A DNA stretch of 64,000 nucleotides, taken from positions 51,460,001 through 51,524,000 of the forward strand of contig NC_087246.1 of NCBI RefSeq assembly GCF_037042905.1, read 5' to 3'. The position numbers were made by a program. Within the stretch, counting starts at the first letter, position 1. Every line of letters begins with the position of its first letter. This DNA is from Lytechinus pictus (taxonomy: Eukaryota). Below, in pieces: positions 45,001-64,000 of the stretch.

Positions 45001-48000
45001 ATTTTGGGGATCAATTTGCTATATTACAAACATATAGACAGAAAGAAAAATAAGTGAGTGAGAACTTGTTTACAACAGAACTTCTTGTGTACACCACATA
45101 AACAAATGAGAGGGAGAGAGAGGGGGGGGGGGGGCAGAAAGAGAGAGAGGGAAAGAAAGAGAAGGGGGAAGTGAGAACTGATATTTTGTGCATGTTAAAC
45201 AATACATTTAGAAATTAAGGCTTACTTCAAACAAACCCATATAAAAGTATTACCAAGTTGCAGCATTATTAAACATTTAGAGATTTTTTTAGGGGATGAT
45301 AATGGAATGTTGATTATGGTATAGGCCTGATAAAGACTTTTATGATACAACATATAACTTCTTTATTTTTTGTCTGAAAAAAAAAGGTTTTAATGAGAAA
45401 GAGAACCCCTCGCGAAATTTAATTTTCCTCTCGAAAAAGTTGATAACTTGAGATGGCAAATGGCAAGATTGCTTTGTAAAATTCCAACTTATGCTCCAAA
45501 GGTAAAATCAATGTAATATCATCAATGGAAATTGATGAATACATGTAAAGTATAAAAAGCTTAATAGAGCAGTGATGGTAACTTACTGACTGCGTTGGTA
45601 TTGGGTTGTGGTGATTGGCTGGCTGTAGTCATCATCACCACCGGGTTAGTAGTTTCATCTTCAGCCTGGGTAGATGCTGTGGGACTACGGGTTGTTGAAG
45701 TTGTCGTTGACATCATGGTGGGAACTGGACTATCATCTGTATAGTATAAGACAAGTGTGAATTTTAAATCAAGATAATAACAAAGCCATGAGAACATATA
45801 CTGATGAGAGGTAATGCTACTTTTGAGATGATCAAAAGCTCAAGTAAAGTTTTGATAGCAAAACAAGGAATTGGGATAATTTCAAAATTGACATTCAGGT
45901 ACCATACCAAAGTTGAAAATCCCAGACTTCATCTAACTATAACTTTAAATAAATGTGTCAGAATGCATGACAGAAAGGGGCAGGGGTTATGTACCCCTTG
46001 TGTAGTAATATATTCTCCTTCCCATTTTCCACTTGTAAGATTTTTGAGGGGGGGGGGCAATTTCATCATTTTGGAGGAGTGACAACATGTTTTATGAGTC
46101 CAATTTTGAAGAAGTCAATCCACACGGTTTTCTTGAGATTAAAAAAAAAAAAAAGCTACCTAAAGGAAATTTCTGAACCCACTCACCCAAACCATTCAGA
46201 TATTTTTATTGTCCATAATGCAATTAGTAACAAATGGAAATTCAATTTGTTCACACAAAAGTAATTTAGAATGTCTAAAGATAGAATGTCTTTAATAAGA
46301 TACAAAGATTACATGATACATATATGTAAACATTATACAAGTCAACAAAGATCAGTGAAATTAAGATAGAGGCGGGGGGGGGGGGGTGTGGGTAATACCA
46401 TTTTATGGCTATTAAATGAACGGATTGAGACAGGAATAAAAGAATTTACGAAGCGTGAGTTTCTGCCGGGAGGTGATCTCAGATGTTTGACTGTCCTAAT
46501 CAAATTATAATATTTACGGAAAGCACCCTTTTTCTTTTATTTTAGAGGCTTGCTTTTAAATTCTTTTTAGTTTTTGTAGATCATCTTTCCTACTCGCATG
46601 TATTAAAACAATAAAACCTCCCTTAAACATGGAACCTCCCTTGAATTAACACTCACTATCCTGTATGGTAACTCGTGTGGTGCCATCTACGACGGTTCCC
46701 ATGTTAGCTTCTCCACGTGACTCGATGGTTATGGATACCGTGAAGGATTCATCAGTCTCTATTATATCGTCATCAATGAGGAGGATATCAATACCAACTC
46801 TGGTTTGACCCTCTAGCATGGTGTGTGTGCTACCCACAGTCGGGGCAAAATCCTGTCCTTCTAATGCTGTCTCACCGGTAAAAGTCACATCTGCAATGAA
46901 ATATTCAAGGAAGAACATTCCATCATTAATTTTTACTAAAATACTGTAATAATATAGAGTAGAATAAAGTATAACACAACATTCTAGGTTTCACTTCATT
47001 GGGTTAAATATGAACGTTATATACACTCAGCAAAAAAAGTTCTTGGACACTTATAAAAGTTAAAATATTCCATATAGATATTTGATTAAAGGCAAATTAT
47101 TGTATGTCAACATGACCAGATAATATTCCTATTCCAGTATGACATGACATTTTCATGTGAACAGTCATGCATGGGTAGTTAAATGCTTTAAACAATAGCA
47201 ATGTCAGTAAAAGAAAATTGCAAGAAATGGATCAGTCAGTGCATGGCTGGTTTAAACAATGGCAATGTCAGTTAAAGAAAATTGCAAGAAAACGATCAGT
47301 CATTCTTTCAGTTGTGAAAGTTTGTGTGGCATAAATATCCATTAAACGATAAAAGCAAACTTAAAGGCAAATACCACTCTAAAAGTGAAGAGAAAGTTAT
47401 CCACCTTGGATGCATCACTATTCCATTGGAATTTTAAGTCAAAGTTAGTTGATGAAAAAAATGTCAAATTTCAGTATCTTGGCATAAGAAAAAGAAAATT
47501 ATCCTTATCCTACTATCTTCTGCAGGGGTGGTGGCCCTAGGTCGACCACTCCTAAGGCGGTCTCTAACTTCATCAGTAGCCAAATACCGCTGGTTCAAAT
47601 TTGAAATTGTTGTTGGTGAAACTTGGAAATATCGAGCCACTTGTCTAAATGACTGCCCAGACTGCAACATTCCTATTGCTCTTGCACGCTCTTGGTTGGA
47701 AAGCTTCATCTTGAAAGTGAGTGTCCAAATGATCCATCGCATTATGCATCCCTAAGCATTCAATTCAAATGATGACCAACTGTTGAAATTGTTGAATGTA
47801 TGCCTACAGGATGGCCATGATCATTAGCATTTGAGTGGTCCATTTCTTGCAAATTTCTTTTACTGACATTGCTATTGATTAAAGCATTTAACCACCCATG
47901 CATGACTGTTCACATGAAAATGTCATGTCATACTGGAAGAGGAATATTGTCTGGTCATGTTGACATACAATAATTTGCCTTTAATCAAATAACTATATGG

Positions 48001-63000: not shown

Positions 63001-64000
63001 ACAAACTTCCCGGTATCCTTCACTCTGTTAATTTCTTTTTAAAAAATATGTATATTTTCAATTAGTCACTATATTCATGGGGGGGAAAAAATATTTAGAC
63101 CTTCACATTTTCTACATGAATCACATCAATAATTAGGCAATATGAAATAATGTAATTTCATGTAAATTGTGATTACACTGTTTCTGGAAAATTTTTACAT
63201 TACTTATTAGTTTACATAAAAGTATACAATCTCTACAACTTCTTCTAAAGCACAGGTTAATTGTAGGTCAATTATCCCAATGTATTAAATGCTTTGTAAA
63301 AACTGTTTAACATTTTCATTAACTATTCTCTATCATAGCTACCACTAAAAGTCTACCTTGCATTGAACTCATATGTAGGCTAATTTACAAGTCAAAAGTA
63401 CAATATTTATCACTCTTTAAATAAAAAGACTTTATATGTAAACAGGGCAATGGACTTCTGAGAATGAACACCCCTTCATTTTCAAAAGCATTTTCATTCA
63501 GGCAGTAAAAGTAATGATGATTACAACACATTCAGAGATCATACTCCATAACTCCACCCCACTCAGACCCCATCACAGTACCTCACCCTTTACACCAATG
63601 GCAATAGATAGAAACTCATCCACACCCACATCTCTTCTTACCCCCACACTACCAGCTGAAAGCAAGGTGTCAATGGACACAGCCGGCACATATGCAAATA
63701 CTTACAAGACATCGAAGTTCTGGAAGGATACTGCCGGAATGGTGTTCAGATTCAATCCAGAGCAGTTGAAAATACGATTTTGACATTGACATCCATCTGG
63801 CGTTCCACTAGGGCATTCTTGAGCAAAAACGAGGTGAAATATCACCAAAAAGAGCGTTACGACAAATATCCCCCTCGCCATGGTTCTGTGTGTATAGTAA
63901 ATCCTTTTCGCCTAGCTTAGCTTTCCCCGCAATCTTTGTACTGCTGCTGTCCGAAGATCGAGTCACCGACTTTGCCTGAAAACAGGGTTTTAGTCGAATG

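What the first reader, a model, noticed from the sequence alone, without database searches (positions are those of the whole stretch)
45587..63881. Unusual LRR + Calx-beta + mucin-stalk ectodomain
Seen: SP-LRRNT-LRRs-LRRCT, then one Calx-beta domain with an acidic DDDIIETDE loop, then a Thr-rich stalk. Known: Calx-beta occurs in NCX exchangers, integrin beta4, ADGRV1 and FRAS1/FREM/ECM3, whereas LRR receptors usually pair with Ig, FN3 or TIR. I do not recall a named family with this combination. A short LRR solenoid on a stalk recalls GPIb-alpha/VLR geometry. Inference: a Ca2+-rigidified adhesion or recognition receptor, possibly lineage-specific.
Basis: partly seen in the sequence, partly recalled or inferred. 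Interest (0 to 1): 0.65.

Follow-up and report, generated by a model that had tools for sequence, protein, structure and literature searches.

The report
Sea urchin LRR–Calx-beta membrane receptor
A gene found so far only in sea urchins encodes a small cell-surface protein that joins a leucine-rich-repeat binding head to a calcium-binding Calx-beta domain; no paper we could search describes this combination, and its function is untested.

Summary
On the minus strand lies an intact nine-exon gene, CDS 63881-42890, all introns GT-AG. It matches the Lytechinus pictus RefSeq model LOC129254021, annotated "uncharacterized protein" (403 aa).

Architecture: signal peptide, LRRNT, four LRRs, a shortened 2-Cys C-cap, one Calx-beta domain, a Ser/Thr/Pro stalk, a TM helix and a 34-aa tail.

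Full-length relatives were found only in Lytechinus, Strongylocentrotus and Diadema. No other compact protein in two large searches carries both domains. Seven paper searches found nothing on the gene or the architecture.

Two points are new:
- Eight of the nine acidic Ca2+ ligands of NCX1 CBD1 are kept and are invariant in five urchin sequences.
- The tail is the best-conserved part (21 of its last 24 residues invariant). It carries YAAV-x6-YSDV, which an alternative duplicated terminal exon removes.

Best reading: a lineage-restricted type I recognition or adhesion receptor with a Ca2+-stiffened spacer and a switchable tyrosine-motif tail. Function, ligand and expression are untested. Structure and complex predictions could not be run.

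The parts
63706..63881 (-). Exon 1 (176 nt): start codon, signal peptide (aa 1-20), 4-Cys LRRNT, start of LRR1; ends in phase 2
   Evidence: ATG at 63881, donor GTAAGT. Pfam LRRNT E 7.6e-6. Hydrophobic segment 1-25. tblastn identity to P0001 residues 1-58 is 100%.
57130..57198 (-). Exon 2 (69 nt): LRR1 body, phase 2-2
   Evidence: Acceptor CAG, donor GTGAGT. Matches P0001 residues 60-82.
56085..56156 (-). Exon 3 (72 nt): LRR2, phase 2-2
   Evidence: Pfam LRR_8 E 2.8e-4 on the ORF. Matches P0001 residues 83-106.
54051..54122 (-). Exon 4 (72 nt): LRR3, phase 2-2
   Evidence: 100% identity to P0001 residues 107-130.
52774..52907 (-). Exon 5 (134 nt): LRR4 plus a shortened C-terminal cap with 2 Cys (C139, C163); phase 2 in, phase 1 out
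   Evidence: 100% identity to P0001 residues 131-174. Aligned to the VLR LRRCT part of PDB 4qxe. No Pfam LRRCT hit.
51424..51552 (-). Exon 6 (129 nt): N-terminal third of the Calx-beta domain, including E196; phase 1-1
   Evidence: Pfam Calx-beta profile 7-37, E 2.5e-3. Splice sites. E196 aligns to NCX1 E385.
46657..46890 (-). Exon 7 (234 nt): rest of the Calx-beta domain, with D231, the acidic loop D257 D258 D259 I I E262 T D264 E265, and the terminal D295-N-D297; phase 1-1
   Evidence: Pfam Calx-beta profile 46-118, E 1.4e-7. Aligned to NCX1 CBD1. The acidic residues are invariant.
45587..45736 (-). Exon 8 (150 nt): Ser/Thr/Pro-rich stalk (26 of 48 residues); phase 1-1
44732..44847 (-). Alternative terminal exon 9a (116 nt including the stop): TM helix plus a 14-aa tail without tyrosine motifs. 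Gives the 383-aa isoform X2.
   Evidence: The frame and acceptor are. The translation equals the C-terminus of RefSeq isoform X2, P0155. It is paralogous to exon 9b.
42890..43065 (-). Terminal exon 9b (176 nt including the stop): TM helix plus a 34-aa tail carrying YAAV-x6-YSDV. Gives the 403-aa isoform X1.
   Evidence: tblastn to P0001 residues 346-403. Sequence. Hydrophobic segment 341-372. Tail conservation.

Best explanation
This is a real, intact, protein-coding gene of the sea urchin Lytechinus pictus. It is annotated LOC129254021, 'uncharacterized protein'. It encodes a small type I membrane glycoprotein.

Shown here:
- The order of parts is: signal peptide; a capped four-repeat LRR head (4-Cys LRRNT, 2-Cys short C-cap); one extracellular Calx-beta domain; a Ser/Thr/Pro-rich stalk; one TM helix; and a short cytoplasmic tail.
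- The tail comes in two forms, from duplicated, mutually exclusive terminal exons.
- The architecture is conserved across Euechinoidea and was found nowhere else.

Inferred mechanism:
- The LRR head binds an extracellular ligand, which is unknown.
- The Calx-beta domain keeps the acidic Ca2+ cage of NCX1 CBD1. In sea water, with millimolar Ca2+ (recalled), the cage should be permanently filled. The domain would then act as a rigid spacer or hinge between head and stalk, not as a sensor.
- The presumably O-glycosylated stalk lifts the head off the membrane.
- The long tail carries a nearly invariant twin-tyrosine motif (YAAV-x6-YSDV). This motif couples ligand engagement either to SH2-type signalling after tyrosine phosphorylation or to YxxPhi-dependent endocytosis.
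- The short-tail isoform is a non-signalling or non-internalising version of the same receptor.
For: Gene and architecture:
- Canonical splice sites and compatible phases; 1212 nt CDS.
- Within exon bounds, the window matches RefSeq P0001.
- On P0001, Pfam gives Calx-beta 54.5 bits (cut-off 27) and LRR_8 46.3 bits (cut-off 27).
- Only two hydrophobic segments: 1-25 and 341-372.

One gene, not two:
- The same collinear architecture occurs in L. variegatus (94% identity), S. purpuratus (65%) and two Diadema species (45%).

Restriction to sea urchins:
- An exhaustive HMMER search of 1.84 billion representatives gave 10062 hits at E<=1e-3. In a local phmmer scan of the 162 proteins stored by then (150 listed representatives, orthologues and cluster members), 17 held both an LRR and a Calx part. 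Fifteen of those are urchin family models. The other two are giant unnamed proteins of 6292 and 3868 aa.
- A profile search over lengths of 220-711 aa gave 91 hits. Six are urchin clusters. None of the other 85 carries both Calx-beta and an LRR Pfam domain. Scores drop from 341 to 108 bits.

Ca2+ site:
- The closest solved Calx-beta by sequence is NCX1 CBD1/CBD2.
- The CBD1 ligands are E385, D421, D446, D447, I449, E451, E454, D498, D499 and D500 (passage of PMC3386913).
- They align to E196, D231, D257, D258, I260, E262 and E265.
- D295, N296 and D297 correspond by position at the end of the domain.
- All of these are invariant in 5 of 5 urchin sequences.
- The same passage says Ca2+ has a structural role in CBD1.

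Tail:
- The tail is the most conserved part: 74% identity to Diadema, against 27-58% for the ectodomain parts.
- 21 of its last 24 residues are invariant.
- Isoform X2 (P0155) uses exon 9a and lacks the motif.
- S. purpuratus isoform X2 (P0004) also ends just before the motif.
- Syk and Src-family kinase transcripts are reported in a sea star egg (passage of PMC11593052).
Against: - No functional, expression or binding data of any kind were available.
- No transcript data were seen. All orthologues are computational RefSeq models.
- Position +3 of both tyrosine motifs is Val, not the Leu/Ile of a canonical ITAM. The motif fits several consensus patterns (ITAM spacing, ITIM for the first Tyr, YxxPhi for both), so it does not single out one pathway.
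- One CBD1 ligand (D499) is Asn here. The third Asp of the loop (D259) varies (D, P, A, S). The D295/N296/D297 equivalence rests on position, not on a pairwise alignment.
- The predicted concave-face LRR positions are neither unusually conserved nor unusually variable: 8 of 20 invariant, against 31 of 77 for the whole LRR part. This gives no hint about the kind of ligand.
- Only five sequences from three genera underlie all conservation statements.
- The restriction to urchins rests on protein databases. A relative at about 30% identity could fall under the 112-bit floor of the listed 150 hits. The profile search scored only the 8000 candidates that shared most words.
Confidence: 0.5

Rival explanations
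1. It is a cell-cell or cell-matrix adhesion molecule rather than a signalling receptor. The LRR head or the Calx-beta domain would mediate Ca2+-dependent homophilic or heterophilic adhesion, as in LRRTM/NGL-type synaptic adhesion proteins or the Calx-beta-rich sponge aggregation factors. The tail would serve only for anchoring or sorting.
For: - The closest LRR relatives by sequence include the adhesion proteins LRRC4/4B/4C, LRRTM, LINGO and Slit.
- NCBI names two of the models 'LRRC4-like'.
- Calx-beta domains build the sponge aggregation factors, which are putative allorecognition and adhesion molecules (PMC5400394: abstract in the listing, passages).
- The Ca2+ ligands are conserved.
Against: - There is no Ig or FN3 domain, as the named LRR adhesion families have.
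- The extreme conservation of the twin-tyrosine tail, and the isoforms that remove it, argue for more than anchoring.
Confidence: 0.2
2. It is an auxiliary single-pass subunit of a channel, transporter or other membrane complex. The model would be the small LRR proteins LRRC26/38/52/55 that tune BK channels, with the Calx-beta domain adding an extracellular Ca2+-dependent element.
For: - An older RefSeq model of this locus family (P0157) was named 'LRRC38-like'.
- It has the same overall size class: a small capped LRR, one TM helix and a short tail with basic residues just after the TM.
Against: - The name comes from automatic best-hit naming.
- No LRRC26-family chain is among the 60 best solved-structure matches shown of 235.
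- From memory, the BK gamma subunits have no domain or stalk between the LRR cap and the TM helix.
- No partner is known.
Confidence: 0.07
3. It is a Ca2+-binding matrix or biomineralisation-related membrane protein of skeletogenic cells. [quoted passage not shown]
For: - A Fras/Frem-like protein with five Calx-beta domains is reported in echinoderm skeletal proteomes (passage of PMC5460417).
- The acidic Ca2+ site is conserved.
Against: - A single Calx-beta domain has little Ca2+ capacity.
- There are no CSPG repeats or other matrix domains.
- The searches found no compact LRR-Calx-beta relative outside sea urchins, although all echinoderms (recalled) build a calcite skeleton.
- The paper does not mention this protein in the passage seen. 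Its supplementary tables could not be opened.
Confidence: 0.05
4. It is a gene-model artefact. The LRR exons (1-5) and the Calx, stalk and TM exons (6-9) would belong to two neighbouring genes fused by automatic prediction.
For: - No transcript evidence was available here.
- All orthologues are predicted models.
- Truncated models exist: P0002 (272 aa) and P0005 (276 aa).
Against: - There is only one signal peptide, at the N-terminus, and one TM helix, at the C-terminus.
- Exon 5 leaves phase 1 and exon 6 enters in phase 1.
- Exon 6 has no start codon context and would lack a signal peptide.
- The same junction is predicted in five species from three genera.
- The N-terminus of the truncated model P0002 matches intron sequence just upstream of exon 5. 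This marks it as a partial model, not a separate gene.
Confidence: 0.03

Closest known systems
Lamprey variable lymphocyte receptors and platelet GPIb-alpha (a capped short LRR on a Thr/Pro-rich stalk)
   Same: An N-terminal LRRNT, a few LRRs and a C-cap sit on a Ser/Thr/Pro-rich stalk near the membrane. Whole small VLRs align to residues 22-181 in one stretch (for example 6bxc_D, E 1.9e-17, and 2r9u_A).
   Different: A Calx-beta domain lies between the cap and the stalk. The C-cap has 2 Cys, not 4. The LRR exons are germline and in frame, with no cassette assembly. It has its own TM helix and a twin-tyrosine tail. The GPIb-alpha architecture is recalled, not tested.
LRRC4/NGL, LRRTM, LINGO and LGR4-type extracellular LRR proteins
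   Same: The best sequence matches of the LRR part are LGR4 (4qxe_A, E 4.1e-29), LRRC4/4B/4C, LRRTM and LINGO1. NCBI's automatic name for two of the models is 'LRRC4-like'.
   Different: It has only four LRRs, no Ig or FN3 domain and no 7TM. The similarity is generic to the repeat class. In the profile search, scores drop from 341 bits within the family to 108 bits for any other LRR protein.
NCX1 (SLC8A1) Ca2+-binding domain CBD1, a Calx-beta domain
   Same: It is the closest solved Calx-beta by sequence (3us9_A, E 3e-12 with P0002). Eight of nine acidic Ca2+ ligands are kept.
   Different: CBD1 is cytoplasmic and works as a Ca2+ sensor in tandem with CBD2. Here a single domain is extracellular, where Ca2+ is presumably saturating. 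D499 is Asn here.
Extracellular Calx-beta proteins: FRAS1/FREM/ECM3, ADGRV1 and sponge aggregation factors
   Same: Calx-beta is used outside the cell in adhesion or matrix proteins (PMC5460417 passage; PMC5400394).
   Different: Those proteins are very large and carry many Calx-beta repeats plus CSPG, 7TM or Wreath domains. This one has a single Calx-beta domain, an LRR head and 403 aa.
Giant multi-domain proteins holding both LRR and Calx-beta stretches (P0029, 6292 aa; P0088, 3868 aa; unnamed records)
   Same: These were the only other proteins among the 162 examined that contain both an LRR-like and a Calx-like part.
   Different: They are ten times larger, with many scattered repeats and no compact SP-LRR-Calx-stalk-TM order. 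Their origin was not pursued.

Membership tests
Calx-beta domain (Pfam PF03160) | Match to the family profile above the curated cut-off | tested here: met
   54.5 bits against a cut-off of 27, residues 184-297, profile 7-119 of 119. The exon 7 ORF alone gives 31.9 bits.
Calx-beta domain, Ca2+-binding subtype (NCX1 CBD1-like) | The acidic ligands E385, D421, D446, D447, E451, E454, D498, D499 and D500 are present | tested here: met
   Eight of nine are kept (E196, D231, D257, D258, E262, E265, D295, D297). D499 is N296. All are invariant in 5 of 5 sequences. The ligand list comes from PMC3386913. The last three are matched by position only.
Calx-beta domain, Ca2+-binding subtype (NCX1 CBD1-like) | Measured Ca2+ binding | not testable with these tools
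   Needs purified protein (ITC, or thermal shift with and without EDTA).
Extracellular capped LRR proteins (LRRNT-LRR-LRRCT class) | 4-Cys LRRNT cap | tested here: met
   Pfam LRRNT gives 25.9 bits against a cut-off of 25.8 on exon 1, but only 22.4 bits on the whole protein. C23, C31, C33 and C40 are kept in all 5 sequences.
Extracellular capped LRR proteins (LRRNT-LRR-LRRCT class) | Tandem LxxLxLxxN repeats | tested here: met
   LRR_8 gives 46.3 bits against a cut-off of 27. The four repeats are listed.
Extracellular capped LRR proteins (LRRNT-LRR-LRRCT class) | Canonical 4-Cys LRRCT cap | tested here: not met
   Pfam LRRCT gives no hit at E<=0.1. Only C139 and C163 are present. The segment aligns to the first half of the VLR LRRCT, so this is a shortened cap.
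LRRC4/NGL family (NCBI's automatic name for P0003 and P0155) | Ig domain after the LRR module (family definition recalled) | tested here: not met
   No Ig-type Pfam family at E<=0.1. A Calx-beta domain sits in that place.
LRRC26/38/52/55 BK-channel gamma subunits (NCBI's automatic name for P0157) | LRR cap followed directly by the TM helix; specific similarity to that family (definition recalled) | tested here: not met
   A 123-aa Calx-beta domain and a 48-aa stalk lie between the cap and the TM helix. No such chain is among the 60 best of 235 solved-structure matches.
Lamprey VLR | Germline gene incomplete; LRR cassettes inserted somatically (recalled) | tested here: not met
   All LRR exons are present in frame in the germline window with GT-AG introns.
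ITAM-bearing receptors | YxxL/I-x6-8-YxxL/I in the cytoplasmic tail (consensus recalled) | tested here: not met
   The spacing fits (YAAV, six residues, YSDV), but both +3 residues are Val in all 5 sequences. It works like an ITAM at best and is not a canonical one.
ITIM / YxxPhi sorting signals | [SIVL]xYxx[IVL], and Yxx followed by a bulky hydrophobic residue (consensus recalled) | tested here: met
   VRYAAV fits the ITIM pattern. YAAV and YSDV both fit YxxPhi. Short patterns like these also occur by chance. Their weight comes from invariance.
FRAS1/FREM/ECM3 | CSPG repeats plus several Calx-beta domains | tested here: not met
   One Calx-beta domain and no CSPG match.

The most novel reading that the evidence does not exclude
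This would be a self-contained, echinoid-specific immune-type recognition receptor. A VLR-sized LRR head would be wired directly to an ITAM-like (or ITIM/ITSM-like) twin-tyrosine tail. Signalling would be switched on or off by the choice between two duplicated terminal exons, and a permanently Ca2+-loaded Calx-beta domain would act as a rigid neck. It would be an LRR-based tyrosine-motif receptor pathway in an invertebrate deuterostome, separate from the TLR and NLR systems.
Probability: 0.12. Interest if true: 0.7.

Novelty: new variant of a known kind. Interest (0 to 1): 0.45.

Why it matters
Sea urchins are a reference group for how deuterostome innate recognition systems evolved, and L. 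pictus is being developed (recalled) as a genetic model. This gene is a clean example of a new receptor architecture built by domain shuffling. The Calx-beta module is flanked by phase-1 introns, and the architecture has been kept in both urchin lineages sampled (Echinacea and Diadematoida).

It also gives three simple, testable ideas:
- An extracellular Calx-beta domain acts as a Ca2+-loaded structural neck.
- A conserved twin-tyrosine tail acts as the output.
- Alternative terminal exons act as the switch.

If the tail recruits SH2 kinases or phosphatases, the gene would add an LRR-based tyrosine-motif receptor to invertebrate immunity or adhesion. If not, it remains one more lineage-specific LRR membrane protein.

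Tried and rejected
**Steps that could not be run**
There is therefore no model, no fold search and no view of how the LRR cap and the Calx-beta domain pack.
- Complex prediction of two copies of the ectodomain (residues 21-300 of alignment A1) was never accepted. The queue was full, and searches gave no usable answer. Homodimer or homophilic binding stays untested, with no verdict.

**Searches that gave no useful lead**
- ESM Atlas look-alikes gave only generic LRR clusters (score <=0.83) for the whole protein. For the stalk, TM and tail they gave generic 'stalk-TM-tail' clusters (<=0.79). Both are below the level at which a hit is more than a lead.
- Weak Pfam hits on the TM and stalk region (Psg1, TMEM154, DUF3377) are all below their cut-offs. 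I treat them as compositional.
- The first LRR motif scans missed the LRR exons, because the motif spans the splice junctions. The scans found them.
- A search for a counterpart in L. pictus of the alternative 'IYSVL' end of S. purpuratus isoform X2 found nothing convincing.
- Concave-face conservation of the LRRs was uninformative.
- Seven paper searches for the gene ids, for the LRR plus Calx-beta combination and for tyrosine-motif signalling found nothing on this protein. The passages opened concern other proteins.

**Window-wide checks**
- Rfam and tRNA scans of the window found nothing.
- Of 10 long ORFs scanned by Pfam, 9 lie outside the gene's exons without any family. One, in intron 6, is a transposase-type HTH fragment.

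**Collections not used**
- Genome contigs holds only bacteria and archaea, so it cannot answer which echinoderms have the gene.

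
Full report
**What is in the sequence**

The window is AT-rich (GC about 0.29-0.40 in 2-kb windows). It has one run of N at 34723-34957, which I left alone. I do not take it for human: the locus matches a Lytechinus pictus RefSeq model.

Reading the DNA around each open frame gives nine coding exons with canonical AG/GT borders and compatible phases:

| Exon | Coordinates | Length (nt) | Content |
|---|---|---|---|
| E1 | 63881-63706 | 176 | Signal peptide, LRRNT, start of LRR1 |
| E2 | 57198-57130 | 69 | LRR1 body |
| E3 | 56156-56085 | 72 | LRR2 |
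| E4 | 54122-54051 | 72 | LRR3 |
| E5 | 52907-52774 | 134 | LRR4 and C-cap |
| E6 | 51552-51424 | 129 | Calx-beta, N-terminal third |
| E7 | 46890-46657 | 234 | Calx-beta, rest |
| E8 | 45736-45587 | 150 | Stalk |
| E9b | 43065-42890 | 176 | TM helix and tail |

The total is 1212 nt, which is 403 codons plus a stop.

A scan for further short LRR exons in the right phase found only the three internal ones.

**Exon-by-exon searches**

That joined step was left out.

Pfam on the eight exon ORFs:
- Exon 1: LRRNT, E 7.6e-6.
- Exon 3: LRR_8, E 2.8e-4, below the cut-off.
- Exons 6 and 7: Calx-beta split cleanly between them. Exon 6 covers profile 7-37 (E 2.5e-3) and exon 7 covers profile 46-118 (E 1.4e-7).
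- Exons 2, 4 and 5: nothing at E<=1.

A protein search with exon 7 alone returned three proteins:
- The 403-aa RefSeq model 'uncharacterized protein LOC129254021 isoform X1 [Lytechinus pictus]' (P0001, 99% identity).
- A 272-aa L. pictus model (P0002).
- A 404-aa L. variegatus model named 'LRRC4-like' (P0003).

tblastn of P0001 on the window places every part on the exons above. Mismatches occur only where alignments run over splice junctions. From here on, full-length work used this public record and its named orthologues, not a join of my own.

**Architecture**

On P0001, Pfam gives Calx-beta at 54.5 bits (residues 184-297) and LRR_8 at 46.3 bits. It gives no Ig, FN3, TIR or LRRCT family at E<=0.1.

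There are only two hydrophobic segments, 1-25 and 341-372.

The LRRNT has four invariant Cys. The C-cap has only two (C139, C163). It aligns to the first half of a lamprey VLR LRRCT, so it is a shortened cap.

The LRR head is VLR-sized. Whole small VLRs align to residues 22-181 in one stretch.

The stalk has 26 of 48 residues Ser, Thr or Pro.

The protein is thus a type I membrane glycoprotein, not just an ectodomain.

**Two tails**

About 1.7 kb upstream of exon 9b lies a second, paralogous terminal exon, 9a (44847-44732). It has the same acceptor context and phase. It encodes a very similar TM helix, then a 14-residue tail and a stop.

Its translation equals the C-terminus of RefSeq isoform X2 (P0155, 383 aa).

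The long tail from exon 9b carries YAAV, six residues, then YSDV.

S. purpuratus isoform X2 (P0004) also departs from the long form just before this motif. In exon 9b, a GT at that very point could serve as an internal donor (this is an inference).

**Relatives**

Full-length relatives were found in:
- L. variegatus (94% identity).
- S. purpuratus LOC100887883 (63-65%). UniRef calls it 'Calx-beta domain-containing protein'.
- Diadema antillarum and D. setosum (about 45%), both 'uncharacterized protein'.

The common taxon is Euechinoidea.

The exhaustive HMMER search gave 10062 hits at E<=1e-3. Apart from the family itself, the best 150 are giant multi-Calx or multi-LRR proteins. Those I looked up are mostly bacterial.

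In a local scan of all 162 stored proteins with the LRR and Calx parts separately, 17 held both. Fifteen are urchin family models and two are giant unnamed proteins.

A profile search restricted to 220-711 aa gave 91 hits. Scores drop from 341 bits (family) to 108 bits. None of the 85 non-family hits carries both Calx-beta and an LRR family.

Limits of these searches:
- The floor of the listed 150 hits is about 112 bits.
- The profile search scored only the 8000 candidates that shared most words.
- No eukaryotic genome collection was available.

'Echinoid-only' therefore means 'as far as these protein searches see'.

**Ca2+ site**

The closest solved Calx-beta domains by sequence are the NCX1 CBD1 and CBD2 domains.

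A passage of PMC3386913 (found by the search, read) names the CBD1 ligands: E385, D421, D446, D447, I449, E451, E454, D498, D499 and D500. It also states that Ca2+ has a structural role there.

I checked the register of the alignment against the FDDD motif. In that alignment the ligands fall on E196, D231, D257, D258, I260, E262 and E265.

The domain ends in D295-N296-D297, at the position where CBD1 has D498-D500. That correspondence is by position at the end of the Pfam profile, which makes it an inference.

All of these residues are invariant in the five urchin sequences.

Because the domain is extracellular, and sea water holds millimolar Ca2+ (recalled), the site should be filled all the time. 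It would then act structurally rather than as a sensor.

**Conservation pattern**

Identity of each part to Diadema (two sequences):

| Part | Identity to Diadema |
|---|---|
| LRRNT | 58% |
| LRR | 47-48% |
| C-cap | 27-30% |
| Calx-beta | 42-44% |
| Stalk | 29% |
| TM helix | 46% |
| Tail | 74% |

Of the last 24 residues, 21 are invariant. The tail is therefore the most constrained part, which argues for a conserved cytoplasmic partner.

The motif has ITAM spacing but Val at +3. The first Tyr fits the ITIM pattern, and both Tyr fit YxxPhi (patterns recalled). So it does not identify the pathway.

Syk and Src-family kinase transcripts are reported in a sea star egg (passage of PMC11593052).

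**Origin**

Exons 2-4 are phase 2-2 LRR units. The Calx-beta domain (E6 plus E7), the stalk exon and the TM exon are all bounded by phase-1 introns. This is the pattern expected if a Calx-beta module was inserted by exon shuffling into an LRR-stalk-TM gene (an inference).

**Literature**

Searches for the gene and protein identifiers found no paper.

Searches combining Calx-beta with LRR and sea urchin terms listed 6 to 8 papers each. The listings and the passages I opened concern adhesion GPCRs, sponge aggregation factors, Fras/Frem and sponge immune genes, not this protein. A search on ITAM, Syk and sea urchin listed nothing on it either.

Supplementary tables, for example single-cell marker lists, were closed and may mention the gene.

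**What could not be done**

Structure prediction was never accepted. Complex prediction was never accepted either (ten tries). Atlas look-alikes were uninformative.

**Verdict**

The gene is already in RefSeq as an uncharacterised prediction, but no paper in the searchable library describes the architecture or its details.

It is best seen as a new variant of the single-pass LRR receptor kind: lineage-restricted, with an extracellular Ca2+-type Calx-beta neck and a switchable twin-tyrosine tail. Its function remains inferred.

Noticed in passing
window 44732-44847 and 42890-43065 (minus strand): These are duplicated, mutually exclusive terminal exons. Each encodes the TM helix, with a short or a long cytoplasmic tail. 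The alignment with flanks has 76% column identity, highest over the TM-coding part.
   Followed up: yes
window 54445-54665 and 55081-55299 (intron 3): An inverted repeat with arms of about 220 nt, 97-98% complementary, and about 415 nt between them. It looks like a foldback or MITE-like element.
   Followed up: partly
window 47467-47751 (minus strand, intron 6): An open frame matching transposase-type helix-turn-helix domains (Pfam HTH_38, E 2.8e-8). It is probably a remnant of a DNA transposon.
   Followed up: partly
window 6929-7213 (+), 16914-17186 (-), 57443-57715 (+): Three copies of an interspersed repeat that share an open frame of about 90 aa. The two copies scanned (6929-7210, 57443-57712) match no Pfam family. 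One copy lies in intron 1 of the gene.
   Followed up: partly
window 25839-26699 and 20571-20751: A minisatellite of 26-nt and 64-nt units rich in GTGTGGTAA, and a perfect two-copy 89-nt tandem repeat.
   Followed up: no
window 44167-44240 (minus strand): The odd C-terminus of the truncated L. pictus model P0002 (LOC129278020, 93% identical in BLASTP) matches this intronic stretch, but in two different frames. P0002 shares several residues with L. variegatus rather than with this locus. It comes from a second copy or a diverged haplotype, and I could not tell which.
   Followed up: partly
window 34723-34957: A run of 235 N (assembly gap or masked). I left it alone.
   Followed up: no
window 1-42800: No long open frame with a Pfam family, no tRNA and no Rfam family were found downstream of the gene. 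Small exons of another gene cannot be excluded.
   Followed up: partly
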